DNA from: Eledone cirrhosa
Lineage: Eukaryota
Direction: 5' to 3'
Assembly: GCA_964016885.1 (NCBI GenBank)
Contig: OZ024742.1
Coordinates: 281,914,001-281,978,000, forward strand
Length of the DNA stretch: 64,000 nt
Below, one piece after another: positions 17,595 through 46,110 of the stretch. The translations under genes were made by a program, and so were the position numbers. How positions within the stretch are numbered: the first letter of the stretch is position 1; each line of letters opens with the position of its first letter. The notes under the pieces were generated by a model that was given only the letters and a program-made list of their open reading frames with translations, searched no databases and was not told where the DNA came from.

Positions 17595-18144
17595 TAGCAA
17601 AATTCTCCTGGCATTGAAATCAGTAAATATGTTAATGTGATTTCTGCTGTAGTTAGTACCATTTTCTAATTTTATTTTTCATGTTTGCTGGTGCATCTTA
17701 TCAGCTTCATCTACGCCACTCTAAGTACTTTTTATCGATGGTTCTCCTCTAATTCTCTGATTTCCAGTGTCTTGAAATAAATTAATGTCTCTCTTTTTAA
17801 TTAATTCACCTCCCCGGAGAATAAGTTTTGGCACATTTGTCGAACTTCACACTTATTTTCATATCACTATTGACTTCATGTATTATAGTTGCAGACTTAG
17901 TTTCCTTGTAGCGTTGTTTCAACTGGGCACTGTCTCTTTCTAAGTAATTATAAATTCTTCTTCACGCCAGTACATACTCGAAAACTTTTGTTTGTTTTAT
18001 TGTATGTTTTCACTATCGATTCTACGTAAAACCCCAATTGTTTTTCTGATTCGTACTTGTAATTTTCATTCATCCGACCCTCTTGTGACAAATAAAGAAA
18101 CGTTTCTCCTTCTTCTTGTTATTATTATTGTTGTTATTATTGGG

Positions 18145-18468
18145 TTACGGCTCTTTATGATCTGAGTTCAAATATCCCGCCAAGGTTAACGTTGCCTTTC
18201 ATCCTTATGGGGTCGATAAAATAAAGTACCAGTCACGCACTGGGGTCGATTTAATCGACCCCCCCCCCCCAAAAAAAAATTGCTGGCCTTATGCCTATAT
18301 AAGAAACCATTATTATTATTATTGGGGGTGGGGGGTCGATTAAATCTGTTATCGACCCCGTAAGGAAGAAAGGCAAAGTTAACATCGGCGGAATTTAAAC
18401 TCAGAACGTAAAGGGACATAACTCTATGTCATGAAGCATGGTGTGCAAGGCTCTACCGATACTGCCAA
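18145..18468. mobile_element. Two SINE family 1 copies, tail-to-tail
   Basis: Plus copy ~18145-18310 ending GGCCTTATGCC..GAAACC(ATT)n; minus copy ~18335-18468. Confidence 0.75.
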
Positions 18469-18474
18469 TAATAA

Positions 18475-18505
<31 letters not shown>

Positions 18506-18506
<1 letters not shown>

Positions 18507-20038
18507 ATTTCATTTATTAGCCACAAGGGCCGACATGTAGGGGACAATACAAAGACAGGGACAGTGGGGGTTTACAATAAGGTCGAGTAAAAGTGCACAA
18601 TGGCAAGACTAAGTTAACAATGAAGATATACAAAATATAAAATAAACTATGCATAAATATAACAAAATAAATTCCCCGATAGGGGGTGGACGACACTGGG
18701 GTGACTCGGGTACGCCACCAATCCTGAACCACCCTGCGCTTCTAGGGCACCCAGTGAGAGCACCCCTCTCCTCAAGTTAGCTAGACTATAGGCGCATGGT
18801 CAGAGTAGGCCAATTCACACGGGCCATTCTCGCCACATTCATCCACCTTTTAGCAAATGTACTGGGTGCAGAATTTCTCTCTCCACCCTCACCTTCCTTT
18901 CCAGGTGAAACTTGAAGGAGTTGATGAGGGATTGGCCGAAGAGAAAATTGTCTGTCTTCAGTCCTTTTAATCTGGTCCACCTTATAACCACTTTCGCAAC
19001 TGCCACCAGACAGAGGAAAATTTCCTGCTCTTCCTGACCTAAGAAAGGCGGCGGGTCGATCATCACTATGGACTCGGCCGATAGCCGGATTCGTTCCACA
19101 CGCGACAGTAGCTGTTCGACATAACACCACAAGTCAGTAATGCACGGACATTGGACAAGTGCGTACAGAACGGTTTCGTTGTTCTGTGGGCATCTTGGGA
19201 AGGTCCGTCTGACGGCACATCTGTGCCTGAAGAGTTTATCCCGAACCGGCAGTGCACCGGTAGCACTGCCAAGCGAGGGATTTCTGAAATTGTCCATCGT
19301 CCCCGGGTCGAAATTCCTCCGGTACAGACTGGTCAGTTCGACTTCGTCGAGGCCCAAAGCTTCCCCGAGTGCGTCCTCGCACTTGCCCACCACTAATCCT
19401 CTATAGAACTCGAGAGTGGAAGTTCCACTGATAGCATTGCCAGCTTGCGAGAGGGCAACATTCCAGGTGCCATCACCCAGTCACGGTCTCTTCTTGACCC
19501 AGGACTGCAGCTCAGTCAAAGAAACGAGCTGCGGAAAGGCCCGTCTGATAAACGGCGACCACACCTGTTCACCGTTTAGGCAGAATATCTGGAGATGTCG
19601 CAGCTTCAACGCATGTCTGCGCATCATTAGCCACGGCATGCCCAGCCCTCCGAGTAGAGGGTACTGAAAGCAGATGGACCACCTCACCAACGGAACTTGT
19701 CCCCTCCACAAGAATTTTAAGAGGAGCCGTTCCAACTTGACGAGGCGCGGACGGGGGCAAGACACGGCGGTCAGACGGTAGTAGATGACGGAGGCGATGT
19801 ACGCATTCGCCACCTCCGCGCGACCTTTCAGTGATAGCTTCCTCCCAGCCCATTTTTGGGTGAGACTGGCCACTCTGCTCGTTACCTTGTCCCAATTATT
19901 TTCCACCTGGAGGTCTGGTCCGAACCAAACCCCGAGCAACTTTACCGGTCCGTCCGTCCAGCGCCCCATGACGCTGTTGGACGGCATGGGCTTGCCTCTC
20001 CAGGTTCCGAGCTGCAAGCCGACCGTATGGCGCCTGTC
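18506..20038 (-). mobile_element. Tx1-type non-LTR retrotransposon family C, 5'-truncated
   Basis: Encodes the RT thumb and CCHC region homologous to ORF2 of families A and B. Ends CCCTTGTGGCTAATAAATGAAATC(ATT)n on its sense strand. (AAT)n on both plus-strand flanks. Confidence 0.9.
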
Positions 20039-20044
20039 AATAAT

Positions 20045-20233
20045 AATAATAATAATTGTTTCTGCTTTTGGCACAAGGCCACCAATTACACAGTGTATTA
20101 CTGGTACTTTATTTTATCGACCCTGTAAGGATGAAAGGTTAACTTTGCTTTTCATCTTTACGGGGTCGATAAAATAAAGTACCAGTAATGCTCTGGGATA
20201 ATTGCTGGCCTTGTGTTAAAAGTAGAAACAATT
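20045..20233. mobile_element. Head-to-head palindrome of two SINE family 1 3' halves, tails outward
   Basis: ~20045-20137 (minus) and ~20138-20233 (plus). Each tail runs into an (ATT)n tract that carries a Tx1 insertion. Confidence 0.85.
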
Positions 20234-20260
20234 ATTATTATTATTATTATTATTATTATA

Positions 20261-20317
<57 letters not shown>
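20231..20317. repeat. (ATT)n target tract
   Basis: Directly visible. Confidence 0.95.
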
Positions 20318-20525
20318 GGCGACCTACGTAGTAAATCGTATCATCGTGAGCTCCGCAAAGGTTTGTTATTTCCGTTTGTTAAAAATTGCCATTTATGGAA
20401 AATTTTTATTGTTAACCATATATAAGCGCACATACATTGTTTTCCGAAAAGGACACCCAAAAAGATTGGGGCCTTGTGCCCTAAATTTAAACTTTTATTA
20501 TTATCAAAAAATTTCTTTGAAAAAT

Positions 20526-22503
20526 ATGGCTAATTCACCTCTGCACCAAGCAGCTGAAAGCCTTTCTCACAAATTAACACCTCACACCGATACCACCATT
20601 GTAAATGTTACTACGTTTGCCAACACGACAAAAAATATAAGCAGTAGCAATATTTTAAATTTGTCTCAGGCAGACATTCATTTCCCGCCATTACCAATGA
20701 CTGCAGGTGTTAAAGCCACCACCACCACCCCCACCACCACCGAGACAACAGAAACAAAAGAAGAAAAAAATAAATTAACTCGTGATGTCGAAATGAAATC
20801 AAGCAAAATGGACTCTTCCCCACCAAAGACGACTGACGTTACCACAACCACAACTGAAACTAAAATTAATATTAACACAAATAACGATAGCAACAACAAC
20901 AACAATGACATTATAAAAACCACCCTCAGTTTCGCCAGAGTAGCAAAACAGTTCGAAGCATTTACGGTAACTCAGGAGGATTTAGAAAATGACAAACAAA
21001 TGGTAAAGAAAGATGGGTACAGGGTCAGCCTCCCCCCCCCACCTAATAAAATGGAGCATCGGCGCCTATGCACAGTGTCGTATCGAGCATTAAATGTAAA
21101 ATCGCGCCGAGTGGAACGGGCATCCGAGTCCCAAATCCAAAAAGCTTTGGGACATGTGTGGGTAAGAAAAACCCACATCAGACGTGGGCAGAAGTATGGA
21201 ACCGTGGACGTGTTCTTTGAAACACCAGAGGAGGCTAGAGAACACTCCATGGCCCCATTAAGAAGTGACGACTTCACACTCGTCCCAAGCTATTGTGGCC
21301 AGAGACTCGTAAAGATCAGGGTGACCCACGTTCCACCGGCCATCGAAATTCCCTGGCTAATAGCGGCCGTCCTCGCCGGCATCGAAGCCAACACAAAAAT
21401 AATAGCAATAGCAAAAGAAAAGCAGGAGAACTGGTCCGGATATGGGATGGAGCTCCTGATCCAAGCGGACCAAAAAAGCATTGAGGAGATCCCAGAGGTA
21501 ATAGACCTCACTGACGGCAGCCACCTCACGGTAATTGTCGAGGGCAGAAGACCTAGGTGTGTCGTTTGTGGTGAAGGAACCCACCTAAGGGCTTTCTGCC
21601 CTCAGGCTAAAAGGTTGAGGCCACCTCTCCTACCCACCCCAGTGACACAACCATCAACACCACCAGTAGCAGAGATGGCAGCAACAACTGTAGCAGCAAC
21701 AACAGAAGCAACTATAACAGCAACAACCCCAGCAACAGTAGCAAAACCAACACCACCACCACCACCACCAGCAAAACCAACACCACCACCACCCAACGCT
21801 TCAGAACTAGCACCAGCGCCTACACCATCCACCATGCCACAACCAAAACTAACGCCTGTGGAGGATTTTCCACTCCCCGGCCTATCACAACTGGAGACAG
21901 ATTGTGACGACGAGGAGTGGGAAACGATATCCGGAAAAAAAAAAAAGAAACCAAAAAAGAAAAAATTCTCTTCCTTCCCCCTCCAAAAACAAAATACAGA
22001 GGGAAACAAATAAACTAGGAAACAAAAAAGTTAGGACAGATATACCACCATCCACACCAGCATCACAAACCCCATCAACCCAAACACCAACACCATCACC
22101 ATCATTAACCCCAACACCACCATCACCTACACCACAAAAGTCACCCAAATGCGAAACAGAAACAAACCCACAACAAACGCAAACAAAACAATACAACCAA
22201 AACGATACACACTACACAGCTTTAAATTTGAACAACAAGCAATTATTACACTACATCCAACACAACACCAGCATCACCGAAAATGACTACACAACAACCC
22301 CAAAATTCACACCACCTCCGCACATACAAATCACTCGCATCACACAGAAAACGTACATGACACTAAAACAAAAATTCCCCAAAGACATCGGAGACTTCCA
22401 ACAAGCACTCTCCAGGAGGATTTATAAGGACATGCTTCCTGAGGAAGCCACAAGCAGTGAAAAGGATGGAAAAACCGTCCTTCCCCTACGAGAAGTAAGG
22501 TAA
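20526..22503 (+). pseudogene. ORF1 (gag-like, CCHC knuckle, Thr/Pro-rich tail), frameshift in A-run at ~21940
   Basis: RPRCVVCGEGTHLRAFC (CX2CX4HX4C). The C-terminus continues in ORF 21904-22503 and is homologous to family B ORF1. Confidence 0.85.
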
Positions 22504-22537
22504 GTGGTCTTTCCCATCTTTTCCACTCCTTTTCAAC

Positions 22538-25081
22538 ATGACCTCACTCAGAATAGGCAGCATAAATGCGCGTGGCTTGGGGTCGTCATGGAAGCAGGGC
22601 CACCTGCTCAACGACCTCAGGTCACTAAACATAGATGTAGTGGCCATCAGCGAGACCAGAATCTCCGAGGCACAGGCTTTCGCACCGATCTTCGGCGGCT
22701 ACGATGTGTACGCATCTCCCAGCCGTCCGGGATCGGGGGGAGGAGTTGCTGTGCTTTTCGGGAGAGGTTTGGATCTTGCCATACTGGCCATCTTCCTGGA
22801 CCCAGAAGGTAAGTTGGTGGTGCTGGACGTGACCAGCGGAGACGGGCAAGCTTTCAGGTTAGTGGCCGTCTATGCCCCGACAGGAGCAGGGCGGCCTGAT
22901 TTCTTCCGGCGTCTGGAGACCTTTCTTGGAACGTCCCGCTCTTTAGTGTTAGTGGGCGACTGGAACGGGATCTTAGATGCACGCTGGGATTGTGTGGGAT
23001 TAGTGAATAGGGAATGAGGGTGCAAGAGTCTCACCAACCTGCTCAGACGTTTTGAACTGTCTGACAGGTACCGAATGGATTTCCCGAATGTACCAATGTG
23101 GACTTGGACAAATCGCATAGGATCATCCAGATCATATCTAGATAGAGTATTTAGTAGGGAAATAGATAGGTCTAGCATAGGCTGTCCACAATTCAAGATA
23201 GTCAGCTTCAGTGGCGGGCCGGATCAAGGGATGGACTTTAGTGTCTACCTCGACGGACTGGCGCGGCTTTCGGCCACTGAGGCGGAGTGTTGCGAAAAGC
23301 CGATAACAACCGCTGAAGTACGGGATGCAATGACTAGTTGCACAAGGGGTAAATCGCCTGGTTTGGATGGTCTGCCCTATGAACTTTACGTACAAATACC
23401 AAACTTGTTCTGAGGCCTCTTGGCGGACGTCTACTGCAACTGGCAACAGAACGGGAGAATTCCCAGCTCCGTGAGCCGAGGAGTGGTGGCGCTGCTGAGA
23501 AAGGATCCGAACAAGGGGGATAACATAGATAATTTTAGGCCCATAACTCTGCTAAACACAGGGTTCAAGATTTTGGCCAAGGTGCTAGCAAAGAGGTTGG
23601 CGCTTGTCGTTGGTGGTCTGGTGGGAGAGGCACAGACATGCGCCATTCCCGACAGATCCATCCACGACAACCTCCACCTCATGCGATACATCGTAGAGAG
23701 GGTAGCTAGGGAACCTGGCACGGGTGGGTCTTTGATCAATTTAGATCAGTCGAAAGCCTTCGATAGCGTCGACCATCATTACCTAGCGGCAGTCCTGAGG
23801 GCGGCTGGCTTTGGGCCCGTCTTCAGAGGCTGGATCGCTGCCATGCACAGCGACATCTGCTCTGTAGTGAGAGTGAACGGTCACCTTTCGGAACCGTTCA
23901 ACATCATGCGCTCGGTCCGCCAAGGATCTCCCCTCTCGTCCCTATTGTACGTATTGACTCTCGAGCCATTACTGCACAAACTGGAGACGTTGAGGGGGGT
24001 CCCGCGCGAACTAGGATGCGGAAGATCCGTGTCAGGATATGCCGACGATGTCACCGTCACCGTCATCTACTACCGCCTGACCGTCGTACCTTGTCCTAAG
24101 CCCCGCCTGACTGCGCTGGAGCGTTTGCTCTTTCGCTTCTTGTGGAAGGGACGCGCTCCGATGGTCAGGCGGTCCATCTGCTGTCAACACCCACTACGTG
24201 GGGGGCTGGGCATGCCGTGGCTGATGATGCGCAGACACGCGCTCAGGCTACGACATCTCCACCTCTTCCTCGACGGTGATCAGGTGTGGTCGCCGTTTGC
24301 TAGACACGTTTTTCCCCAGCTCGTCTCCTTGACGGAGCTGCAGTCCTGGGTCAAGCGAAGACCGAGAGGGGGCGCTTGGAGACTGGAATGTCTTCAGGCG
24401 CTCACAGCCCTCGACCAATCGGGCAATGTGATCGGTGGAAACTCCACCTTGGCGTTCTATAGGGGATTAGTGGAGGGGAAGAGCGACGACGTACTTGGAG
24501 AAACTCTAGCCGTCGACGAAAATCAACTAGCCAATCTCTTCGGAAGGACTTTCGGGCCGGGGCCTATGGACAACTTCCAGAAATCCCTGGCCTGGCAGTG
24601 CTACCGGGGAGCTTTGCCAGTTCGGGATAAACTCTACAGGCATGGAGGTGCCGTCAGCCGGGCATGTCCGAGATGCGCGCAGGGCGACGAAACCGTCCTG
24701 CACGCACTCGTCCAGTGTCCGAGCATTGCTGACTTGTGGGTTTATGTCGAACACCTGCTGTCACGTGTAGGACGGATCCATCTATCAGCTGAGTCCATCA
24801 TGAGGATTAATCCGCCCCCTTCCTTTAGCCGGGAAGGGCAGTCAGTTTTTATCTGTCTGGTGGCCATGGCGAAAGAGATAGTATGGTGGACACGTTTGAA
24901 AGGGCTGAAGACGAGCACTTACCTCTTCGGTGATGCCCTGATTATCTTTTTCAAATTTCATCTGAAAAGGAAAATCAGGGTAGAGAGGGAAGTGCTCTCT
25001 TCCCAGCATTTTGTTGAAAGATGGGTGAGAGAAGCAAGTATGGCCCGAATGAATGGGCCTTCTCTGAGTATGTGTCTGTAA
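22538..25081 (+). pseudogene. ORF2 APE endonuclease-RT-CCHC, with stops and two internal deletions
   Basis: SINARGL, ISET, GDWN, YLDR; RPITLLN, LDQSKAFD, VRQG, YADD; CPRC..ETVLHALVQC. Deletions at ~23208 and ~24058 relative to copy 2. Confidence 0.92.
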
Positions 25082-25588
25082 ATTAAAGGTGGAAAACTAG
25101 GAGAGGGCACTTGCCCTGGTGGTCAGGGCCACTGTGGTCTTTTAATGGGCTTTCTCCACAAATGTCCCTTGGAAGTCTCCCCCCTATTGGGGAATTTTTC
25201 TTTGTTATTTTATTTCAACCTCTGTTTTTTTACGCGCAGAAATGCCCATTTGTACCGTCCTGTATTGTCCTGTACTGTCCTTAATGTCTACTTTATGTGA
25301 ACCCTTGTGGTTAATAAAGAAAACATTATTATTATTATTATTATTATCATTATTATTATTATTATTATTATTGTTGGTGAAGCCACGCTTCTTATCGCCT
25401 TCAGTTTTTTTCAACGTTTTACCTCGTTTTCAACCGTTCTAAACCTTTTATTCAAGTTTTAAATTTGATAAAAGTTTAGAAGATGTGACCCACCTAATAC
25501 AGGGGTTCACTCGTAAATAATACGGCACCCCTTTACGGGGTGTCGTATTCGTATTTGTGTAAAAATATTTTTTTTGAAAAATTTCAAC

Positions 25589-27685
25589 ATGGATAACACA
25601 AGAAAGAGAGAGAGCGCTGTCAGACAACACAGAGGGAGAGAGAGGGAGACTTTATCAGCATGTCAACAAGACAGGGTTCCAGCGGAGGTAAATATAAACG
25701 AAAATATTACAAAGGAAAAGAAGATTGTTATAGATTTAAAATTAACAAATATTTCTAACACAAACAACACCAACAATAAAACCAACAACAACACCAACAA
25801 TAACATCATCAATAATAACAGAAATAACAAAAATAACAGCGGTAAAGTCGAGAACGACAATAACAAAAATAACAGCGGTAAGGTCGAGAACGACAATAAC
25901 AATAACAATAACAACAGCTACAACAACAATAATAGTAGGAACAGTATCAACAAAAACAACAATAATAACAACAGCCACAATAACAGTAACAAAAGCAACA
26001 GTATCAACGAAAACAACAACAACAACACCAACAACTGTACCAACGGAAACAACAATAATGACATCGATACCTGTAATAGCGATCTCAGCACCACCAGTAA
26101 GACCAGTAGCGGCAGCAATAGTGGTGCTGCTGAAAAAGGGACCACTTCTTTTGCAGGTGTCGCCCGAAATATCGAGACAGTGTTAGTCACAGAGGAGGAG
26201 ATGGCATACGCAAGGGCTATGGTGACAAGTAGCGCCAATAGAGTTTCCCTGAAACCTCCACCCGATTTTTTCAAGGACCAACAGCTACGGATGGTGACTT
26301 ACCGCACCGTAAGCAAAATCTCACATCGGGTGGAGAGAGACACGGAGGCTCAAATCCCAAAGGCCTTGGGGTGCGTCTGGGCACGCAAAACCCACATCAA
26401 ACGAGGCGGAAAGTACGCCACAGTAGACGTACTTTTCGCCACCCCCCAGGAAGCAAAGTCTCACTCTTTGGAAACCCTAAAGAGTGAGGAGATAGTCTTG
26501 GTGCCCTCCTACTGCGGGCAGAAAATTGTGAGGGTCCAAGTGACCCAGGTCCCACACGACGTGCCCATACCTTGGCTGGCCGCGTCTGTCCTTGCTGGAA
26601 TCGAGAACAGGACGACCATGCTGCAAGTAGAAAAAATAGGGAGAGAGAACTGGTCAGGTATAGGCATGCAAATGCTTATAAAAACTGACCAGGAATGTAT
26701 CAACGCTACCCCCGATATCATAGACATCGAGGAAGGACTCCAACTGCCTATAAGTGTAGAAGGAAGACGGCCAAAATGTTATCTCTGTGGGTCGAAGGGT
26801 CACCTCAGGGACTTTTGCCTGCAGAAGACAGCGAAGAAGGCCCCTCTCCTTCCAATACCTGGTCCGCTGCTACCAAGAGCAGGGCAGGCAACAAACGAAG
26901 AAGCCCCTTCCACTGTGAGTAGGAGGGCAACGTCCGTAGTAACCGTACCAAGGCCACGGACAACTAAAGCAGCATCATCAGTGGCGGCAACACCAATAGC
27001 TACATTTGAAGTAGCTACACCAGCAACAAAATTGCCGAAGAGGGCTTCACTACCACCAGCAACAGCCGTGGAGCACATACCCCTCTCAGACGCCACAGAA
27101 TCCGACATGGAGTTTGAGGCGGGAGTGAAGTGGCTAACGGTCTGCCACAAAAAAGAAAAAAGAATAAAACCCTTAGATTCACCCTCCAAAAGCGAAGGCA
27201 TACAAAGAGGGGTAAAGGCAACAAGGAAACTTGCAGCAACACCACCACCATCACCACCACAAGCACCACTGACAACAACAACCACACCACCATCAGCAAC
27301 ACCAAAGACACCAACAACGCAAACACAAGACACACACACTAAACAGCAACAAGAGAAAATAGCAACAAAATCACCCTCCCCCAAAAAGGTACACATCCAT
27401 AAACATGGCAAAAAAGAACTCATACAATATATAAAGCAGCGCACAGCCATCACAGAAAAAAACTACTACACCCTACCAACACCAAGAACTCTCCCGACAA
27501 ACATAAGCATCATCGAAATCTCAATAGAACAGTACAAACATTTAAAATAAAAATTCCCCAACGCAGTTGGAGACTTCAGAGGTACGGTTACCAAGAGGAT
27601 ATACACTGACATCCTCTTGGAAACACCCATGACCAGCGAAAGGGACTGTTCTACTGTCCCATCACTACACGAACAAGGTAAGTGA
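25589..27685 (+). pseudogene. Family B ORF1 (Asn-rich N-terminus, CCHC knuckle), premature stop at 27548-27550
   Basis: RPKCYLCGSKGHLRDFC. Reading through the stop gives KFPNAVGDFR..RIYTD, homologous to family A KFPKDIGDFQ..RIYKD. Confidence 0.85.
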
Positions 27686-27716
27686 CCCTTCTCACTTGCC
27701 CCGTTTCTCATCCAGC

Positions 27717-30666: not shown

Positions 30667-30989
30667 TTTGAGAGATGGAAAAATTGAGAGAGGGCGCTTG
30701 CCCTGGTGGTCAGGGTAGCCGTGGTCTTTTGTGTGGTTTTCGCCACGAGTAACCCTCGGAGGTTTCCCCCCTATTGGGGAATTTTTTATTGTTTCAATTT
30801 TCATTTTTATTGTTTATATATATATATGTTTCTATGTCTTTTTTTTTTTCTTTTCTTATATAAATAATAAAAATATTTACACGCACAAAACCCACATCGT
30901 ACCGTCCTGTTCCATCTGTGATGTTTTTCTTGATGTCAGCCCTTGTGGCCAATAAAGAAATCATTATTATTATTATTATTATTATTATT

Positions 30990-31646
30990 CCTTGAATCTC
31001 AGTCATTGATGTTGGTTAACTGGAAAGTCCGTTGGAATGAATATCAAGCCAATACCTGCAGCCTCAGATATTCAGGACGTATCGGAGGGTTCTTGCTGTT
31101 CCCAGCAAGCATGCCTTTTGAAGCGTTCCAAAAAGCGTGAAGGGGCCAATTTTCTTTAACCATCCCTGGAAACTTTTTGAGATAGTACCTAGTGCGCCTA
31201 TGACAATCGGGACCACTTTGACTTCATGGCAGTCCCAAATACTTTTTACCTCCCACTTTAAGTCCTGGTATCGGTTAATTTTCTCCCTCTCCTTCTCTTG
31301 CACTCTCGTGTCGAATGGGCAGGCCACAACCACAATCAGGCACGATCTTTTTTCTTTGTCCACAACCACCAGGTCAGGTCTATTGTATTCCAGTTTCTTG
31401 TCCGTCTGCATCCTAAAATCCCACAGCACCTTCACCTGATCGTTTTCTATCACCGACTCTGGCTTATGCTCATACCATTTCTCAGAATGTGGTAAATTGT
31501 TTACTTTGCACAGGTGCCAGTGGATCACCCTGCCCATCAATTCATGTCTCCAGCCCTTATAGTGAGTATGGGCTAGGTGTTTACACTCGGATACAATGTG
31601 ATCCACAGTCTCCTCTCTCTCTCCACAGATCCTGCACAGTGGGCTA
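30990..31646 (-). mobile_element. R4/Dong-type RLE retrotransposon 3' fragment, unit 1
   Basis: HIVSEC, WRH, RPDLVVVD..VACP..EKINRYQDL (PD-(D/E)xK). (TAA)n tail on its sense strand. Confidence 0.9.
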
Positions 31647-32473
31647 AACTCTAGGCGTCGACGAAAATCAACTAGCCAATCTCTTCGGACGGACTTTCGG
31701 GCCGGGGCCTATGGACAACTTCCGGAAATCCCTGGCCTGGCAGTGCTGCCAGTTCGGGATAAACTCTACAGGCATGGAGGTGCCGTCAGCCGGGCATGTC
31801 CGAGATGCGCGCAGGGCGACGAAACCGTCCTGCACGCACTCGTCCAGTGTCCGAAAATTGCTGACTTGTGGGTTTATGTCGAACACCTGCTGTCGCGTTT
31901 AGGACGGATCCAGCTATCATCTGAGTCTATCGTGAGGATTGCCCCGCCCTCCTCCTTTAGCCGGGAAGGGCAGGCAGTTTTTATCTGTCTGGTGGCCATG
32001 GCGAAAGAGATAGTATGGTGGACACGTTTGAAAGGGCTGAAGACGAGCACTTACCTCTTCGGTGATGCTCTGATTGACTTTTTCAAATTTCATTTGAAAA
32101 GGAAAATCAGAGTAGAGAAGGAAGTGCTCTCTTCCCAGCATTTTGTTGAAAGATGGGTGAGAGAAGCAAGAATGGCCCGAGTGAATGGGCCGACTCTGAG
32201 TATATATCTGTAAACTAAAGGTGGAAAACTGGGAGAGGGCACTTGCCTTGGTGGTCAGGGTCATTGTGGCTTTTTACTGGGCTTTCTCCACAAATGTCCC
32301 TCCGAAGTCTCCCCCCTATTGGGGAATTTTTCATTGTTATTTTCATTGTTATTTTTGTTACATCCTCTGTTTTTGTTTTTTTACACGCAGAAATGCCCAT
32401 TTGTACCGTCCTGCATTGTCCTGCACTGTCCTTAATGTCTACTTTATGTAAACCCTTGTGGTTAATAAAGAAA

Positions 32474-32475
<2 letters not shown>
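31647..32475 (+). mobile_element. Tx1 family A-like 3' fragment, unit 1
   Basis: CCHC region, 3' UTR and (ATT)n. Fused directly to the R4 fragment. Confidence 0.9.
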
Positions 32476-32550
<75 letters not shown>

Positions 32551-32557
32551 GTTATTA

Positions 32558-33215
32558 CTCCTTGAGTCTCAGTCATTGATGTTAGTTAACTGGAAAGTTT
32601 GTTGGAATGAATATCAAGCCACTACATGCAGCCTCAGATATTCAGGACGTATCGGAGGGTTCTTGCTGTTCCCAGCAAGCATGCCTTTTGAAGCGTTCCA
32701 AAAAGCGTGAAGGGGCCAATTTTCTTTAACCATCCCTGGAAACTTTTGGAGATAGTCCCTAGTGCGCCTATGACAATCGGGATCACTTTGACTTCATGGC
32801 AGTTCCAAATCCTTTTTACCCCCACTTTAAGTCCTGGTATCGGTTAATTTTCTCCCTCTCCTTCTCTTGCACTCTCGTATCGAATGGGCAGGCCACATCC
32901 ACAATCAGGCACGATCTTTTTTCTTTGTCCACAACCACCAGGTCAGGTCTATTGTGTTCCAGTTTCTTGTCCGTCTGTATCCTAAAATCCCACAGCACCT
33001 TCACCTGATCGTTTTCTATTACCGACTCTGGCTTATGCTCATACCATTTCTCAGAATGTGGTAAATTGTTTACTTTGCACAGGTGCCAGTGGATCACCCT
33101 GCCCATCACATCATGTCTCCAGCCCTTATAGTGGGTTTGGGCTAGGTGTTTACACTCGGATACAATGTGAGCCACAGTCACCTCTCTCTCTCCACAGATC
33201 CTGCACATTGGGCTA
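32558..33215 (-). mobile_element. R4/Dong-type 3' fragment, unit 2
   Basis: CRICGEREVTVAHIVSEC..RPDLVVVD. Same breakpoint as unit 1. Confidence 0.9.
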
Positions 33216-34007
33216 AACTCTAGGCGTCGACGAAAATCAACTAGCCAATCTCTTCGGACGGACTTTCGGGCCGGGGCCTATGGACAACTTCCAGAAATCC
33301 CTAGCCTGGCAGTGCTGCCAGTTAGGGATAAACTCTACAGGCATGGAGGTGCCGTCAGCCGGGCATGTCCGAGATGCGCGCAGGGCGACGAAACCGTCCT
33401 GCACGCACTCGTCCAGTGTCGAGCATTGCTGACTTGTGGGTTTATGTCGAACACCTGCTGTCACGTGTAGGATGGATCCAGCTATCAGCTGAGTCCATCG
33501 TGAGGATTGCCCCGCCCTCTTCCTTTAGCCGGGAAGGGCAGGGAGTTTTTATCTGTCTGGTGGCCATGGCGAAAGAGATAGTATGGTGGACACGTTTGAA
33601 AGGGCTGAAGACGAGCACTTACCTCTTCGGTGATGCCCTGATTAACTTTTTCAAATTTCATTTGAAAAGGAAAATCAGGGTAGAGAGGGAAGTGCTCTCT
33701 TCCCAGCATTTTGTTGAAAGATGGGTGAGAGAAGCAAGTATGGCCCGAGTGATACTCTGAGTATGTGTCTGTAAATTAAAGGTGGAAAACTGGGAGAGGG
33801 CACTTGTCCTGGTGGTCAGGGTCACTGTGGTCTTTTAATGGGCTTTCTCCACAAATGTCCCTCGGAAGTCTCCCCCCTATTGGGGAATTTTTCTTTGTTA
33901 TTTTATTACATCCTCTGTTTTTTTTACACGCAAAAATGCCCATTTGTACCGTCCTGTATTGTCCTGTACTGTCCTTAATGTCTACTTTAGAGAACTACTA
34001 AAGAAAA

Positions 34008-34008
<1 letters not shown>
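33216..34008 (+). mobile_element. Tx1 family A 3' fragment, unit 2
   Basis: Same junction GGGCTA|AACTCTAGGCGTCGAC and same small deletion (CAGTGCTGCCAG) as unit 1. Confidence 0.9.
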
Positions 34009-34047
<39 letters not shown>

Positions 34048-34054
34048 GTAATTA

Positions 34055-35997
34055 CTCCTTGAGTCTCAGTCATTGATGTTAGTTAACTGGAAAGTTTGTT
34101 GGAATGAATATCAAGCCACTACATGCAGCCTCAGATATTCAGGACGTATCGGAGGGTTCTTGCTGTTCCCAGCAAGCATGCCTTTTGAAGCGTTCCAAAA
34201 AGCGTGAAGGGACGATTTTCTTTAACCATCCCTGGAAACTTTTGGAGATAGTCCCTAGTGCGCCTATGACAATCGGGATCACTTTGACTTCATGGCAGTT
34301 CCAAATCCTTTTTACCTCCCACTTTAAGTCCTGGTATCGGTTAATTTTCTCCCTCTCCTTCTCTTGCACTCTCGTGTCGAATGGGCAGGCCACATCCACA
34401 ATCAGGCACGATCTTTTTTCTTTGTCCACAACCACCAGGTCAGGTCTATTGTGTTCCAGTTTCTCGTCCGTCTGTATCCTAAAATCCCACAGCACCTTCA
34501 CCTGATCGTTCTCTATCAACGCCTCTGGCTTATGCTCATACCATTTCTCAGAATGTGGTAAATTGTTTACTTTGCACAGGTGCCAGTGGATCACCCTGCC
34601 CATCACATCATGTCTCCAGCCCTTATAGTGGGTGTGGGCTAGGTGTTTACACTCGGATACAATGTGAGCCACAGTCTCCTCTCTCTCTCCACAGATCCTG
34701 CACAGTGGGCTAGCCTCCTCCTTGTAAATATGGTGTTTCAACCACTTCGTTTTGAGGGCCTGCTCCTGCGCAGCCATTAACATTCCTTCTGTAGCCTTTT
34801 TAAGGTCTCCTCTTTTCAACCAGTTCCATGTCTGTGGATCTCTAAATTCAGTTTTCTCAAAGAAGGTACTATGAAGGGATTTTTCCTGAAGGCTGCTCTT
34901 TCTCTTTGATGTTATTTCCTCCTTGACATCCCCTGGCCTATTGTTCCCTCCTTCAGTACAGTTCTGAGCATTGGCTCCTTACTATCAGTCACGTATGTGT
35001 GTAGGTTGTTTTTCTCCATCTGAACACAGTCCTCTATGCTGATAAGACCTCTTCCACCCTCAGATCTCCTTAAGTAGAGTCTATCGACATCATTCCTCTT
35101 GTGGAACATGTTGTAGATAGTCAATAGCTTCCTAGTCTTCCTATCCATTTCTTTTTGTTCAGCAACATTCCATCTCAGAATTCCCGCACTGTACCTAATA
35201 ATAGACACAGCTCGGGAATTTACTGTGCTTATGGCATTTCTGCTGTTCAGATGTGACTTCAATACGCTCCTAACTCTCCGAATGTATTCAGTTCTTAACA
35301 ATTCCTTCATTTTTTTTTGTTCGTGATGTCATCAGCCTCCAGAACGCCCAAATACTTGTATCCTTCCTCAGAGTCAATTTCCTTTATCATCTCACCTCTT
35401 GGTATCTGGATTTCGTTACTTCTGCTCAACCTACCCCTCCTCATCACAATGACTCCACATTTACTAATACCAAATTGCATACATATATCACTGCTGAAAA
35501 TACGGACAGCGTCATCAAGCACATCCAACTCCTTCTCACTCTTCCCGAAGAGCTTAAGATCGTCCATGAAGAGGAGGTAATTGATGGTAAGCCCTCCCTT
35601 TCCCAACCTGTATCCTGCTCTCACTTTTCGCAGTACACTGGTCAGGGGCATCAGGGCAAGGAAAAACAACAGAGGGGACAGGCTATCTCCCTGGAAGATA
35701 CCTCTCTTGATCTTCACGCTTCCCAAGGATTCTCCAGTTGATGTCAACTCTGTTTCCCAGGACCTCATACTTTTGCCCAACAACTGTCTGATGTTATCTG
35801 CCACCTTGAAGATCTCCAGGCTTTTGGTGATCCAAGAATGAGGCACCATGTCAAATGCCTTTCTGTAGTGTATCCATCCCATGGCAAGATCAATGTGTCT
35901 CCTCTTGCAATTCCCCATTACCATCTTATCAATAAGTAACTGGTCCTTTGTACCACATGACTTCTTTCGGCATCCTTTCTGTTCGTCCGGTAACAAG
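34055..35997 (-). mobile_element. R4/Dong-type non-LTR retrotransposon (RT + CCHC + RLE), 5'-truncated, frameshifted
   Basis: [66 protein letters not shown]. Flanked by (TAA)n on its sense strand. Confidence 0.93.
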
Positions 35998-36232
35998 TTG
36001 TTATTATTATTATTATTATTATTGGCGACCTACGTAGTAAATCGTATCATCGTGAGCTCCGCAAAGGTTTGTTATTTCCGTTTGTTAAAAATTGCAATTT
36101 ATGGAAAATTTTTATTGTTAACCATATATAAGCGCACATACATTGTTTTCCGAAAAGGACACCCAGAAAGATTGGGGCCTTGTGCCCAAAATTTAAACCT
36201 TTATTATTATCAAAAATTTCTTTGAAAAAAAA

Positions 36233-38240
36233 ATGGCTAATTCACCTCTGCACCAAGCAGCTGAAAGCCTTCCTCACAAATTAACACCTCACACCGACAC
36301 CACCATTGTAAATGTTACTACGTTTGCCAACACGACAAAAAATATAAGCAGTAGCAATATTTTAAATTTGTCTCAGGCAGACATTCATTTCCCGCCATTA
36401 CCAATGACTGCAGGTGTTAAAGCCTCCACCACCACCACCACCGCGACAACCACCACCCTCACCACCACCGCGACAACAGAAACAAAAGAAGAAAAAAATA
36501 ATTTAACTCGTGATGTCGAAATGAAATCAAGCAAAATGGACTCTTCCCCACCAAAGACGACTGACGTGACCACAACCACAACTGAAACTAAAATTAATAT
36601 TAACACAAATAACGATAGCAACAACAACAACAATGACATTATAAAAACCACCCTCAGTTTCGCCAGAGTAGCAAAACAGTTCGAAGCATTTACGGTAACT
36701 CAGGAGGATTTAGAAAATGCCAAACAAATGGTAAAGAAAGATGGGTACAGGGCCAGCCTCACCCCCCACCCACCCCACACCTAATAAAATGGAGCATCGG
36801 CGCCTATGCACCGAGTCGTATCGAACAATAAATGTAAAATCGCGCCGAGTGGAACGGGAATCCGAGTCCCAAATCCAAAAAGCTTTGGGACATGTGTGGG
36901 CAAGAAAAACCCACATCAGACGTGGGCAAAAGTATGGAACCGTGGACGTGTTCTTTGAAACACCAGAGGAGGCTAGAGAACACTCCATGGCCCCATTAAG
37001 AAGTGACGACTTCACACTCGTCCCAAGCTATTGTGGCCAGAGACTCGTAAAGATCAGGGTGACCCACGTTCCACCGGCCATCAAAATTCCCTGGCTAATA
37101 GCGGCCGTCCTCGCCGGCATCGAAGTCAACACAAAAATAATAGCAATAGCAAAAGAAAAGCAGGAGAACTGGTCCAGATATGGGATGGAGCTCCTGATCC
37201 AAGCGGACCAAAAAAGCATTGAGGAGATCCCAGAGGTAATAGACCTCACTGACGGCAGCCACCTCACGGTAATTGTCGAGGGCAGAAGACCTAGGTGTGT
37301 CGTTTGTGGCGAAGGAACCCACCTAAGGGCTTTCTGCCCTCAGGCTAAAAGGTTGAGGCCACCTCTCCTACCCACCCCAGTGACACAACCATCAACACCA
37401 CCAGTAGAAGAGATGGCAGCAACAACTGTAGCAGCAACAACAGAAGCAACTATAACAGCAACAACCCCAGCAACAGTAGCAAAACCAACACCACCACCAC
37501 CACCACCAGCAAAACCAACACCACCACCACCCAACGCTTCAGAACTAGCACCAGCGCCTACACCATCCACCACGCCACAACCAAAACTAACGCCTGTGGA
37601 GGATTTTCCACTCCCCGGCCTATCACAACTGGAGACAGATTGTGACGACGAGGAGTGGGAAACGATATCCGGAAAAAAAAAAAGAAACCAAAAAAGAAAA
37701 AATTCTCTTCCTTCCCCCTCCAAAAACAAAATACAGAGGTAAACAAATAAACTAAGAAACAAAAAAGTTAGGACAGATATGCCACCATCCACACCAGCAT
37801 CACCAACCCCATCACCCCAAACACCAACACCATCACCATCATTAACCCCAACACCACCATCACCTACACCACAAAAGTCACCAAAATGCGAAACAGAAAC
37901 AAACCCACAACAAACGCAAACAAAACAAAACAACCAAAACGATACACACTACACAGCATTAAATTTGAACAACAGGCAATTATTACACTACATCCAACAC
38001 AACACCAGCATCACAGAAAAAGACTACACAACAACCCCAAAATTCACACCACCTCCACACATACAAATCACTCGCATCACACAGAAAACGTACATGACAC
38101 TAAAACAAAAATTCCCCAAAGACATCGGAGAATTCCGACAAGCACTCTCCAGGAGGATTTATAAGGACATCCTTCCTGAGAAGGCCACAAGCAGTGAAAA
38201 GGATGGAAAAACCGTCCTTCCCCTACGAGAAGTAAGGTAA
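36233..38240 (+). pseudogene. Family A ORF1, frameshifted in C-run/A-run
   Basis: ORFs 36233-36784, 36741-37742 and 37779-38240 tile the copy 1 ORF1. Confidence 0.88.
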
Positions 38241-38274
38241 GTGGTCTTTCCCATCTTTTCCACTCCTTTTCAAC

Positions 38275-41200
38275 GTGACATCACTCAGAATAGGCAGCAT
38301 AAATGCGCGTGGCTTGGGGTCGTCATGGAAGCAGGGCCACCTGCTCAACGACCTCAGGTCACTAAACATAGATGTAGTGGCCATCAGCGAGACCAGAATC
38401 TCCGAAGCACAGTCTTTCGCACCGATCTTCGGCGGCTACGATGTGTACGCATCTCCCAGCCATCCGGGATCGGGGGGGAGGAGTTGCTGTGCTTTTTCGG
38501 AGAGGTTTGGATCTTGCCATACGGGCCATCTTCCTGGACCCAGAAGGTAAGTCGGTGGTGCTGGACGTGACCAGCGGAGACGGGCAAGCTTTCAGGTTAG
38601 TGGCCGTCTATGCCCCGACAGGAGCAGGGCGGCCTGATTTCTTCCGGCGTCTGGAGACCTTTCTTGGAACGTCCCGCTCTTTAGTGTTAGTGGGCGACTG
38701 GAACGGGATCTTAGATGCACGCTGGGATTGTGTGGGATTAGTGGATAGGGAAGGAGGGTGCAAGAGTCTCACCAACCTGCTCAGACGTTTTGAACTGTCT
38801 GACAGGTACCGAATGGATTTCCCGAATGTACCAATGTGGACTTGGACAAATCGCATAGGATCATCCAGATCATATCTAGATAGAGTATTTTGTAGGGAAA
38901 TAGATAGGTCTAGCATAGGCTGCCCACAATTCAAGATAGTCAGCTACACGGACCACAAATTCGTGATCTGTGTGCTTGACTTAGATAGGCTTCATAGACG
39001 AGGATCCGGCTACTGGAAGCTAAACGCGTCTTACCAGCGCGCAAGGCCTACAGAGACCGGATTAGAGAACTAGTTAAGCGGGCGTTGACGGGGGCCATCG
39101 TCAACAACAAGTGGTGGTTTGCTCTGAAAAGAGCAATTAGAATAGAGTCCATTAGGTTTAGTATGACTTTAGCAATAGAGAAAAATAGAGCAGAGGGAGA
39201 ATTAGTTAGAAAATTAGATGAGGCGCTTAGCAAAGGCATCGCGACCGACGTACTTGCGGCGAAATTGGCCCTTGACCAATTCTTCAATGCAAAGCACGAA
39301 GGCTGCGTTGTCAGAGCTAGGGTGCGTGCTCTCAGACACGAGGGGACGAAAGCCGTTCAATGGGCCCGAGTGGCGGAGGCGCGTCGTGGCAACAAAGGCA
39401 CGATCCGGTCTTTGGTGGACCACGACGGGCGCATGCTACTCGATCCCGGGCAAATGTGTGAAGCTTTTCAGCGACATTTCGCTCAACTGTTCGGGGGCAG
39501 TGGCGGGCCGGGTCGAGGGATGGACTTTAGTGTCTACCTCGACGGACTGCTGCGGCTTTCGGCCACTGAGACTGAGTGTTGCGAAAAGCCGATAACAACC
39601 GCTGAAGTACGGGATGCAATGACTAGTTGCAGAAGGGGTAAATCGCCTGTTTTGGATGGTCTGCCCTATGAACTTTACGTACAAATGCCAGACTTGTTCG
39701 GAGGCCTCTTGGCGGACGTCTACTGCAACTGGCAACAGAACGGGAGAATTCCCAGCTCTGTGAGCCGAGGAGCGGTGGCGCTGCTGAGAGAGGATCCGAA
39801 CAAGGGGAATAACATAGATAATTTTAGGCCCATAACTCTGCTAAACACAGAGTTCAAGATTTTGGCCAAGGTGCTAGCAAAGAGGTTGGCGCTTGTCGTT
39901 GGTGGTCTGGTGGGAGAGGCACAGACATGCGCCATTCCGGACAGATCCATCCACGACAACCTCCACCTCATGCGATACATCGTAGAGAGGGTAGCTAGGG
40001 AACCTGGCACGGGTGGGTCTTTGATCAATTTAGATCAGTCGAAAGCCTTCGACAGGGTCGACCATCGTTACTTAGCGGCAGTCCTGAGGGCGGCTGGCTT
40101 TGGGCCCGTCTTCAGAGGCTGGATCGCTGCCATGCACAGCGACATCTGCTCTGTAGTGAGAGTGAACGGTCACCTTTCGGAACCGTTCAACATCATGCGC
40201 TCGGTCCGCCAAGGATGTTCTCTCTCGTCCCTATTGTACGTATTGACTCTCGAGCCATTACTGCACAAACTGGAGACGTTGAGGGGGGTCCTGCGTGAAC
40301 TAGGATGCGGAAGATCCGTGTCAGCATATGCCGACGATGTCACCGTAGTGGTGTCGAACGCCAAACACAGCGAGGCGATCGGCACTACACTAAGAGAATA
40401 CGAAGCGGTGACAGGAGCAATGATCAACCAGGAAAAGTCAGTGGGCCTGCAGCTCGGCACCTGGAGAGGCAGGTCCATGCCGTCCAACAGCGTCGTCGGG
40501 CGCTGGACGGACGGACCGGTTAAATTGCTAGGGGTCTGGTTCGGTCCAGACCTCCAGACGGACAAAAACTGGGTCGAGGTGACGAGCAGGGTGGCTTCTC
40601 TCACCCAGAAATGGGCCGAGAGGAAGCTATCCCTGAAAGGTCGAGCGGAGGTGGCTAACGCGTACATCGTGTCCGTCATCTACTACCGCCTGACCGTCGT
40701 ACCTTGTCCTAAGCCCCGCCTGACTGCGCTGGAGCGTTTGTTCTTTCGCTTCTTGTGGAAAGGAAGCGCTCCGATGGTCAGGCGGTCCATCTGCTGTCAA
40801 CACCCGCTACGTGGAGGGCTGGGCATGCAGTGGCTGATGATGCGCAGACACGCGCTCAGGCTACGACATCTCCACCTCTTCCTTGACGGTGATCAGGTGT
40901 GGTCGCCGTTTGCTAGACATGTTTTTCCCCAGCTCGTCTCCTTGACGGAGCTGCAGTCCTGGGTCAAGCGAAGACCGAGAGGGAGCGCTTGGAGACTGGA
41001 ATGTCTTCAGGCGCCCACAGCCCTCGACCAATCGGGCAATGTGATCGGTGGAAACTCCACCTTGGCGTTCTATAGGGGATTAGTGGAGGGGAAGAGCGAC
41101 GACGTACTTGGAGAAACTCTAGGCGTCGACGAAAATCAACTAGCCAATCTCTTCGGAAGGACTTTCGGGCCGGGGCCTATGGACAACTTCCAGAAATCCC

Positions 41201-41694
41201 TGGCCTGGCAGTGCTACCGGGGTGCTTTGCCAGTTCGGGATAAACTTTACAGGCATGGAGATGCCGTCAGCCGGGCATGTCCGAGATGCGCACAGGGCGA
41301 CGAAACCGTCCTGCACGCACTCGTCCAGTGTCCGAGCATTGCTGACTTGTGGGTTTATGTCGAACACCTGCTGTCACGTGTAGGACGGATCCAGCTATCA
41401 GCTGAGTCCATCGTGAGGATTGCCCCGCCCCCTTCCTTTAGCCTGGAAGGGCAGGCAGTTTTTATCTGTCTGGTGGCCATGGCGAAAGAGATAGTATGGT
41501 GGACACGTTTGAAAGGGCTGAAGACGAGCACTTACCTCTTCGGTGATGCCCTGATTAACTTTTTCAAATTTCATTTGAAAAGGAAAATCAGGGTAGAGAG
41601 GGAAGTGCTCTCTTCCCAGCATTTTGTTGAAAGATGGGTGAGAGAAGCAAGTATGGCCCGAATGAATGGGCCTTCTCTGAGTATGTGTCTGTAA
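38275..41694 (+). pseudogene. Family A ORF2 APE-RT-CCHC, nearly intact (GTG start, frameshifts near 38475 and 39040)
   Basis: 869-aa open segment with all RT motifs (AYADDV). APE motifs include YTDHK and GYWKLN. Confidence 0.93.
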
Positions 41695-41939
41695 ATTAAA
41701 GGTGGAAAACTGGGAGAGGGCACTTGCCCTGGTGGTCAGGGCCACTGTGGTCTTTTAATGGGCTTTCTCCACAAATGTCCCTTGGAAGTCTCCCCCCTAT
41801 TGGGGAATTTTTCTTTGTTATTTTATTTCAACCTCTGTTTTTTTACACGCAGAAATGCCCATTTGTACCGTCCTGTATTGTCCTGTACTGTCCTTAATGT
41901 CTACTTTATGTGAACCCTTGTGGTTAATAAAGAAAACAA

Positions 41940-41970
<31 letters not shown>

Positions 41971-45924: not shown

Positions 45925-46110
45925 TATTGGCAGTATCGGTAGAGAGTCGGACACCATGCTTTGAAGCATAGAGTTACGTCCCTTTATGATCTGAGTTCAA
46001 ATCCCGCCGAGGTTAACTTTGCCTTTCATCCTTACGGGGTCGATAAAAAAAAGTACCAGTAATGCACTGGGTAATTGCTGGCCTTGTGCCAAAAAGTAGA
46101 AACAGTTATT
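45925..46110 (+). mobile_element. SINE family 1, near full length
   Basis: A-box-like TGGCAGTATCGGT, B box GAGTTCAAATCC, family core, tail GGCCTTGTGCCAAAAAGTAGAAAC. Confidence 0.85.

What the first reader, a model, noticed from the sequence alone, without database searches (positions are those of the whole stretch)
18468..41970. Self-extending ~23-kb retrotransposon array built on (ATT)n: three Tx1 families plus an R4/Dong element sharing one microsatellite target on opposite strands
Seen: every element boundary, except the two chimeric junctions, is an (ATT)n/(AAT)n tract (about 18468, 20039, 20231, 25325, 30963, 32476, 34009, 35998, 41938). All Tx1-type pieces read (ATT)n on their sense strand, including minus-strand family C. 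All R4-type pieces read (TAA)n. Known: Dong (R4 clade) targets TAA repeats, and some Tx1 lineages (Kibi, Koshi) target other microsatellites. Inference: this is an (ATT)n-specific Tx1 lineage with an APE nuclease. Each insertion regenerates a tail that is a fresh target for itself and for the unrelated RLE element, so loci grow into mixed arrays. I am not aware of a described ATT-specific Tx1 group but cannot search.
Basis: partly seen in the sequence, partly recalled or inferred. Interest (0 to 1): 0.82.

Follow-up and report, generated by a model that had tools for sequence, protein, structure and literature searches.

The report
Tx1 and Dong share ATT repeats
A 23-kb pile of jumping genes in what is likely an octopus-type genome consists of two unrelated retrotransposon types sitting in ATT triplet repeats on opposite strands, which likely reflects a new ATT preference in the Tx1 group next to the known TAA targeting of Dong, and the same Tx1 group likely also moves a common short repeat (SINE) that supplies the ATT landing sites.

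Summary
Elements fill 23,117 of 23,504 bp; the other 387 bp are nine ATT/AAT tracts. Three Tx1-like families (19-24% apart) read (ATT)n on their sense strand at 6 of 6 3' ends and 4 of 4 non-chimeric 5' ends; the RT-plus-restriction-like (R4/Dong-type) pieces read (AAT)n. Raw reads of another individual show the same junction types at other loci, so this is no assembly artefact. Three corrections. (1) The nest starts from the tails of a head-to-head SINE pair. (2) About 2.9 kb grew by deletion and duplication, not insertion. (3) Tail-to-tail Tx1/Dong joints need only Dong's known TAA targeting. Genome-wide Tx1 flanks could not be counted: the case for ATT targeting rests on four 5' ends here and one in reads. 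New lead: the SINE shares the Tx1 3' hairpin (CUUGU loop, compensatory stem) and its target-site duplications start ATTATT-like, which points to an ATTATT preference, likely helped by tail-target pairing, and not strict microsatellite specificity. I found no ATT-targeting Tx1 in ten paper searches; Repbase and Dfam were not searchable. New variant of a known kind.

The parts
18467..18505 (-). (ATT)13 on minus strand, 3' tail/target of family C; followed by a SINE-like 5' head (18465-18349, minus)
18506..20038 (-). Tx1-like family C, 5'-truncated within ORF2, 22-24% from A and B; ends in CTTGT hairpin plus AATAAATGAAATC
20039..20056 (-). (ATT)6 on minus strand: tail of the left SINE piece and 5' flank of C
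20057..20230 (.). Head-to-head pair of SINE-like 3' pieces (palindrome); its two ATT tails seed both nests
20231..20317 (+). (ATT)29 with one ATA interruption: tail of the right SINE piece and 5' flank of A1
20318..25324 (+). Tx1-like A1, both ends present, ORF1 open (20526-22013), ORF2 broken by stops and deletions of 551 and 324 nt
25325..25372 (+). (ATT)16 with one ATC: A1 tail and 5' flank of B
25373..30962 (+). Tx1-like family B, both ends present, own 5' UTR, ORF1 51% identical to A over 242 aa, ORF2 broken with about 440 nt missing in RT
30963..30989 (+). (ATT)9 shared by B tail and R4 piece R1 3' end
30990..32475 (.). Chimeric unit 1: R4 3' piece R1 (30990-31646, minus) fused without ATT to A-type 3' piece a1 (31647-32475, plus)
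32476..32550 (+). (ATT)25
32551..34008 (.). Chimeric unit 2: R2 (32551-33215, minus) and a2 (33216-34008, plus); same junction and same 13-nt deletion as unit 1; hairpin lost at its 3' end
34009..34047 (+). (ATT)13
34048..36002 (-). R4/Dong-type element R3, 5'-truncated in RT; RT, CCHC finger and restriction-like motif; (AAT)n on both sides
36003..36023 (+). (ATT)7 between the 5' ends of R3 and A2
36024..41937 (+). Tx1-like A2, 5.9 kb, both ends present, frameshifts in ORF1 and ORF2; 2.4% from A1; 5' UTR holds a second CTTGT hairpin at 36175-36187
41938..41970 (+). AAT(ATT)10, right end of the array
45930..46103 (+). Reference copy of the dispersed SINE-like family (target-site duplication GTTATTTAT); further copies near 1151, 1982, 10653, 18144, 51398, 51587, 62649

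Best explanation
This is a nest of broken LINE copies inside two ATT tracts that are the tails of a head-to-head SINE pair, where a Tx1-like lineage likely inserts by priming reverse transcription at ATTATT sites in its sense orientation and a Dong-type element likely uses the same tracts from the other strand. Inferred steps: ORF2p grips a small 3' hairpin (CUUGU loop) of the RNA; APE nicks the AAT strand; the freed ...AATAAT-3' end pairs with the RNA's AUU tail and primes cDNA. Each insertion leaves (ATT)n behind it, a site for the next Tx1 or Dong copy. The same protein likely moves the SINE, which shares the hairpin and spreads new ATT tails. The preference is likely for a short ATTATT motif, with long tracts as rich targets, and not strict microsatellite specificity. 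After insertion, deletions and one tandem duplication reshaped the nest (shown by shared junctions).
For: 4 of 4 non-chimeric Tx1 5' ends, from three families 19-24% apart with third-codon excess (0.31-0.33 against 0.12-0.18), follow sense (ATT)6-29; background 0.084%. In raw reads of run X14 a 5'-truncated Tx1 starts right behind another Tx1's ATT tail (41952 to 41237, 123 reads). Same run: Tx1-tail/ATT/R4-tail joints in 5 of 15 listed rows (2,538 reads, five tract lengths); truncated R4/ATT/R4 joints in 3 of 15 rows; 10,664 reads with ATT beyond the R4 3' end. SINE 3' ends align to Tx1 3' ends (B against 9 of 9 SINE ends, p at most 0.0073 against random window 32-mers; R4 end p 0.59-0.78); the 4-pair stem has changes on both sides in 3 of 4 pairs, 87.5% cells paired against 34-51% when slid. 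Target-site duplications found for 4 of 8 SINE copies by script, a fifth by eye, all begin ATTATT, TTATT or GTTATT, three outside any long tract. Tail-steered priming is proposed for other LINEs (PMC6007223, passages); Dong on TAA incl. a snail (PMC3812793, passages).
Against: Only five Tx1 5' ends support targeting; A1 and A2 (2.4% apart, no codon signal) may be one event. The joint table can show only flanks lying within the stretch laid, and hid 1,876 joints and 8,838 loose ends, so no fraction can be given; the tool skipped 35990-36031. Two head-to-head R4/Tx1 junctions lack ATT (the window's chimera; 34666 to 39319, 191 reads). Tail-to-tail joints are about 1.8% of the 141,943 first mates from the R4 3' cut site and could come from Dong targeting alone. 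The hairpin is not more stable than shuffles (z -1.21 to +1.40), the SINE's best fold is a different one, the match is about 25 nt and was chosen after seeing it, and the rows are related. 3 of 8 SINE copies gave no duplication by script or eye. Other octopod LINEs (RTE, CR1) were not available for comparison with the SINE tail.
Confidence: 0.58

Rival explanations
1. The lineage is strictly (ATT)n-microsatellite specific through its APE domain, like Kibi on (TC)n and Koshi on (TTC)n; the SINE is moved by another LINE or is more relaxed in trans.
For: All 4 non-chimeric Tx1 5' ends here follow 6 or more ATT units, none a short motif. Tx1 target choice is credited mainly to the endonuclease (PMC4494074, passages). 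A contig of run X3 covering the A 5' end has 32 unaligned letters toward the tract (letters not shown).
Against: SINE sites with the shared tail are short ATT-rich motifs. The lineage is far from the one TC-flanked element on hand in the RT tree. The APE hairpin region aligns to human L1 without an insertion. No nuclease test.
Confidence: 0.27
2. ATT is only a 3' tail of these Tx1 elements; they insert broadly, and the array is a local pile made by Dong insertions, duplication and survival in a gene-poor region.
For: Duplication is shown for two units. Dong targeting explains the tail-to-tail joints. Two R4/Tx1 junctions lack ATT. Genome-wide flanks are uncounted.
Against: Families A, B and C have distinct 5' junctions that each abut ATT on the sense strand, one a mid-ORF truncation on the other strand; duplication cannot make these. 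A further truncated copy behind an ATT tail stands in reads.
Confidence: 0.12
3. The array is a misassembly of repeats joined through ATT tracts.
For: No read or contig laid spans the stretch; no long reads were listed.
Against: Copies differ by 1.7-6.5% with private indels; the same junction types occur in raw reads away from restriction sites.
Confidence: 0.03

Closest known systems
Microsatellite-targeting Tx1-clade LINEs: Kibi (TC)n, Koshi (TTC)n, crocodilian families on (TTCC)n/(TTTC)n (PMC4494074, passages and part 3 of 5)
   Same: Two ORFs, APE-RT-zinc finger ORF2, copies flanked by one repeat on both sides in fixed orientation.
   Different: Repeat is ATT, with no C; the element ends without poly(A) in a hairpin plus ATT; distant from the TC-flanked element L001 in the RT tree (32% identity); strictness untested.
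Dong (R4 clade) on TAA repeats: Bombyx Dong, DongAg, snail DongBg (PMC3812793, PMC3774820, passages); Dong-R4 active in Octopus vulgaris (PMC13282606, parts 1-2 of 3)
   Same: RT plus CCHC plus restriction-like motif, (AAT)n on the sense strand at both ends, tandem copies in reads.
   Different: Nothing new in the element; here it shares tracts with Tx1 on the opposite strand. No named Dong sequence was aligned.
SINEU with Tx1-Mar in crocodilians (PMC4494074)
   Same: A SINE and a Tx1 group with a shared target, found in tandem and mixed.
   Different: That pairing was inferred from target and 5' heads; here the lead is a shared 3' hairpin, and the target is the elements' own tail repeat.
Tail-steered insertion of RTE, CR1 and L2 elements and their SINEs (PMC6007223, passages)
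   Same: 3' microsatellite-like tail matches the start of the target-site duplication; SINE and LINE share a 3' stem-loop.
   Different: Here in an L1-group element; no T-stretch signature was tested.

Membership tests
Tx1 clade | ORF2 with APE endonuclease, RT and C-terminal zinc finger | tested here: met
   Pfam Exo_endo_phos, RVT_1, zf-RVT in A and B; APE aligns to human L1 EN
Tx1 clade | ORF1 with RRMs and a CCHC knuckle, unlike vertebrate L1 ORF1 (criterion recalled) | tested here: met
   Model pLDDT 91.5 matches tandem-RRM structures; CX2CX4HX4C in A and B; zf-CCHC in 12 of 45 relatives
Tx1 clade | RT groups with named Tx1 families | tested here: inconclusive
   299 bits against TC-flanked L001, 141-143 against human L1; the tree of 110 RTs held no named Tx1 reference; the Kibi-like label of L001 is inferred from its flanks
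Microsatellite-specific Tx1 (Kibi/Koshi type) | More than 20% of genomic copies flanked by the target repeat | not testable with these tools
   No genome; 4 of 4 in the window and 1 in reads, but unique flanks hidden
Microsatellite-specific Tx1 (Kibi/Koshi type) | Endonuclease nicks the repeat specifically | not testable with these tools
   needs a nicking assay
Microsatellite-specific Tx1 (Kibi/Koshi type) | Belongs to the Kibi/Koshi branch | tested here: inconclusive
   Window elements and Argonauta hians P0003 form their own clade (0.997), sister to unnamed proteins (0.995), apart from L001; root weak
R4 clade / Dong | Single ORF with RT, CCHC and C-terminal restriction-like endonuclease, no APE | tested here: met
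   Motifs in translation; nearest whole relative P0192, 1,158 aa, 64-70% identical, RT without APE and a weak restriction-enzyme-like Pfam hit
R4 clade / Dong | TAA repeats at both ends on the sense strand | tested here: met
   R3 in the window; 3 truncated copies and 10,664 3'-end reads in run X14
R4 clade / Dong | RT groups with named Dong/R4 | not tested
   no named reference sequence on hand
tRNA-derived SINE (dispersed 175-nt repeat) | Short dispersed copies with truncations, tail and target-site duplications | tested here: met
tRNA-derived SINE (dispersed 175-nt repeat) | Small-RNA-derived head with Pol III boxes | tested here: inconclusive
   no tRNA called, no Rfam match at gathering level in 17900-52000; boxes not scored
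Stringent SINE-LINE pair | Shared 3' sequence with a conserved stem-loop | tested here: inconclusive
   similarity and covariation above controls, but about 25 nt, 4 pairs, fold not significant, rival LINEs not compared

The most novel reading that the evidence does not exclude
One octopod Tx1 lineage recognises a CUUGU-loop hairpin, moves both itself and an abundant SINE, and so sows (ATT)n tails across the genome; these tails are the landing site for itself on one strand and for the unrelated restriction-like Dong element on the other. An APE element and an RLE element have converged on one self-renewing microsatellite niche, which builds mixed arrays of tens of kb and feeds the ATT microsatellite load of octopod genomes.
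Probability: 0.35. Interest if true: 0.7.

Novelty: new variant of a known kind. Interest (0 to 1): 0.52.

Why it matters
If true it adds a new target (ATT) to the Tx1 clade, apparently on a branch apart from Kibi/Koshi, and a candidate SINE-Tx1 pair with a shared 3' hairpin, which the papers read report for L2, CR1, RTE, Nimb and some plant L1s but not for Tx1. Because tail and target are the same repeat, the system separates two explanations of site choice, nuclease specificity and tail-target pairing, in a simple tail-swap test. It would also explain LINE hotspots and part of the ATT microsatellite load in octopod genomes, where L1-Tx1 and Dong-R4 are listed as recently active without target analysis (PMC13282606). 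The mechanism class, repeat-targeting LINEs that stack in arrays, is known.

Tried and rejected
No whole genome is held, so copies could not be tabulated. Related-locus scans: metagenomes gave 0 of 85 stretches and then 5 distant loci of 191 (only L001 was useful); viral contigs 0 of 7. Exact DNA motifs for the Tx1 and SINE ends found nothing in viral or prokaryotic collections. Contig joints 41955 to 34030 in runs X5 and X1 were dropped: their shorter side is 18 letters, only ATT. Loose ends at 34346, 34347 and 39278 in X14 were dropped as likely ligation products at AATT sites (agreement 0.34-0.35). Run depths were not used as copy numbers. Rows X4 (share 0.06) and X11-X13 (0.00) are no evidence. 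Rfam found no family at gathering level, so no ribozyme at the 5' ends. The weak MBD Pfam hit in ORF1 was rejected: the model shows an RRM there. The ORF1 word search found nothing but the profile search found 552 relatives, so ORF1 is no orphan. The idea that the chimeric R4/A unit is itself mobile was considered: its junction is not among the listed joints, and local duplication is simpler. Kojima and Fujiwara 2004 is not held; supplements of PMC4494074 could not be read and may list further Tx1 targets.
Full report
Observation. Self-alignment, Pfam and translations resolve 18467-41970 into ten pieces that fill 23,117 of 23,504 bp; the other 387 bp are the tracts. On the plus strand: A1 (20318-25324), B (25373-30962), fragments a1 and a2, and A2 (36024-41937), with APE, RT and zf-RVT. 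On the minus strand: the truncated relative C (18506-20038) and three pieces of an RT element with a CCHC finger and a restriction-like motif (R1, R2, R3). On each element's sense strand, ATT follows 6 of 6 Tx1-like 3' ends and precedes 4 of 4 non-chimeric 5' ends; AAT follows 3 of 3 R4-like 3' ends and precedes the one non-chimeric 5' end. Tracts of 4 or more ATT units cover 0.084% of a strand outside the array; three hits by uniform chance would be about 6e-10. That null is naive and the window was selected, but the pattern is real. Every copy is broken.

Identity. The nearest named ORF2 relative is from Argonauta hians (68%), so the host is likely an octopod; this is inference. A, B and C are 19-24% apart with third-codon excess (0.31-0.33 against 0.12-0.18), so they diverged as active lineages; A1 and A2 differ by 2.4% with no such signal. 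ORF1 is predicted to hold two RRMs before a CCHC knuckle (similar lead). ORF2 scores 299 bits against L001, a whole element flanked by (TC)n that I take as Kibi-like, and 141-143 against human L1. In a FastTree of 110 RTs the window element, P0001 and the Argonauta protein form a clade (0.997) sister to unnamed proteins (0.995) and far from L001; proteins covering under 290 residues of the RT region were left out, no named Tx1 was present and the root is weak. So Tx1-like is well supported and formal clade placement is open. The minus-strand element matches single-ORF proteins of about 1,130-1,180 aa without APE; the R4/Dong label rests on architecture and TAA flanks.

How the nest was built. 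20057-20230 is a head-to-head pair of 3' pieces of a dispersed 175-nt SINE-like repeat. Its left tail holds C; its right tail holds everything else. The two chimeric units share one R4/A junction and a 13-nt deletion, so they are one deletion product that was duplicated (R1-R2 3.5%, R2-R3 1.7%, a1-a2 5.9%, mosaic). A1 lacks 551 and 324 nt and B about 440 nt. About 2.9 kb of the array therefore grew without retrotransposition.

Evidence from elsewhere. No genome is held and collection scans gave no close loci. The stretch 34100-41900 is held at shares of 0.31-0.69 by 9 of 16 listed runs from six coded organisms. I laid 4 of the 16 runs on 34030-41955. X14 is a RAD library; reads begin at GCATGC and end at AATT sites, and it has many loose ends at AATT that I discount. 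Of 15 joints listed (1,876 hidden), five join a Tx1 3' end through ATT to an R4 3' end (326, 304, 418, 252 and 1,238 reads; the last class may include reads with only a long tail), and three join a 5'-truncated R4 through ATT to another R4 3' end (359, 258, 223 reads; side lengths fit AATT sites 70-81 nt upstream, so the joints are not at cut sites). 10,664 reads show ATT beyond the R4 3' end. Of 12 linker rows listed (498 hidden), one puts a 5'-truncated Tx1 right behind another Tx1's ATT tail (123 reads) and one joins truncated R4 and Tx1 head to head without ATT (191 reads). Mixed junctions thus recur at other loci, which argues against misassembly. But tail-to-tail joints are about 1.8% of the 141,943 first mates from the R4 3' cut site and need only Dong's targeting. 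The table shows only flanks that lie within my stretch, the tool skipped 35990-36031, and 8,838 loose ends were hidden, so the share of Tx1 copies in ATT is unknown.

The SINE lead. The last 32 nt of nine SINE copies align to the Tx1 ends better than random window 32-mers (B: p at most 0.0073 for 9 of 9; C: at most 0.0113; A2: 0.0013-0.051; R4 end 0.59-0.78). Both carry CTTGT inside a short stem: AACC/GGTT in A, GCC/GGC in B, GGCC/GGCT in C, TGGC/GCCA in the SINE. Of 127 CTTGT sites in the window 20 have a stem of 3 or more pairs, and 14 of these are Tx1 ends, SINE ends or the copy in A's 5' UTR. On 16 aligned ends, 87.5% of cells pair against 66.7% shuffled and 34-51% slid, with changes on both sides in 3 of 4 pairs. 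Limits: four pairs, chosen from these sequences, related rows, folding energy no better than shuffles and another best fold in the SINE. Target-site duplications were found for 4 of 8 SINE copies by script (GTTATTTAT, ATTATTACCAT, TTATTATTAACGGTACA, TTATTATT) and one more by eye (ATTATTATC); background for two ATT units is 1.2%. If the pairing is right, these sites report the Tx1 target as a short ATTATT motif.

Mechanism. Shown: the anatomy, orientation, duplication and recurrence of junction types. Inferred: hairpin recognition, a nick on the AAT strand, priming helped by pairing of the AUU tail with the freed AATAAT end, and regeneration of the site behind each insertion; Dong uses the same tract from the other strand. 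I put this at 0.58, strict nuclease-set (ATT)n specificity at 0.27, tail-only with no preference at 0.12, misassembly at 0.03.

Comparison with print. Tx1 targets listed are Tx1D, U2, (TC)n, (TTC)n, (TTCC)n, (TTTC)n and transposons, and SINEU is tied to Tx1-Mar by target and 5' heads (PMC4494074: passages and part 3 of 5; supplements not readable). Dong targets TAA in silkworm, mosquito and a snail (PMC3812793, passages; PMC3774820, passages). L1-Tx1 and Dong-R4 are recently active in Octopus vulgaris, with no target analysis in the parts read (PMC13282606, parts 1-2 of 3); Dong is noted in octopus and cephalopods (PMC9115989 and PMC10294476, passages). Tail-steered priming is proposed for RTE, CR1 and L2 (PMC6007223, passages). 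SINE partners in molluscs are CR1, L2, Nimb and RTE (PMC11481361, PMC4824008, PMC4758252, PMC5786205, passages); SINE pairs in the L1 group are described for plants and an alga (PMC3472496, PMC3747384, passages). PMC4640811 (passages) gave background only. Ten searches showed no ATT-targeting Tx1, no octopod SINE-Tx1 pair and no mixed Tx1/Dong array; most hits were seen as listings only, and Repbase, Dfam, the O. vulgaris library and Kojima and Fujiwara 2004 were out of reach, so prior annotation is possible. The ORF1 criterion for Tx1 is recalled.

Verdict. A real feature and a new variant of a known kind: a likely ATT-preferring Tx1 lineage sharing tracts with Dong, with a testable SINE partnership. 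Interest 0.52.

Noticed in passing
window 36168-36211 and 20462-20505: The 5' UTR of family A holds a second copy of the CTTGT hairpin followed by TTTATTATTAT, about 150 nt from the 5' end, like a SINE tail; B has no such copy. Captured SINE end or second protein-binding site.
   Followed up: partly
window 25373-25590: Family B 5' UTR folds far better than shuffles (z -5.63) with several hairpins; A's does not (z 0.72). No Rfam family at gathering level.
   Followed up: partly
window 18050-18143: An older Tx1-like 3' end (scores 32.5-35 against A, B, C ends) followed by a decayed TTC/TTG/ATT tract and a SINE; no ORF2 remnant upstream. May extend the cluster leftwards.
   Followed up: partly
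window 1146-1216 (minus) and 10653-10762: One SINE copy ends internally at GGGGTCG before an ATT-starting duplication, which suggests priming at an internal AUU; another forms a palindrome like 20057-20230, as twin priming might give.
   Followed up: partly
window about 15550-17130 (minus): Penelope-like RT and GIY-YIG remnant (weak Pfam GIY-YIG, E 0.0027) in strongly G-skewed DNA.
   Followed up: no
window 25756-26060: ORF1 of family B carries a long Asn-rich stretch coded by AAC/AAT repeats; A has Thr/Pro-rich stretches instead.
   Followed up: no
L001 1-5678: Whole two-ORF Tx1-like element flanked by (TC)n on both sides in a metagenome contig; used as Kibi-like reference.
   Followed up: partly
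window 7092-7327, 8697-8940, 13379-13645: Long palindromic MITE-like repeats; 7092-7327 has (ATT)4 and (AAT)4 at its two ends.
   Followed up: no
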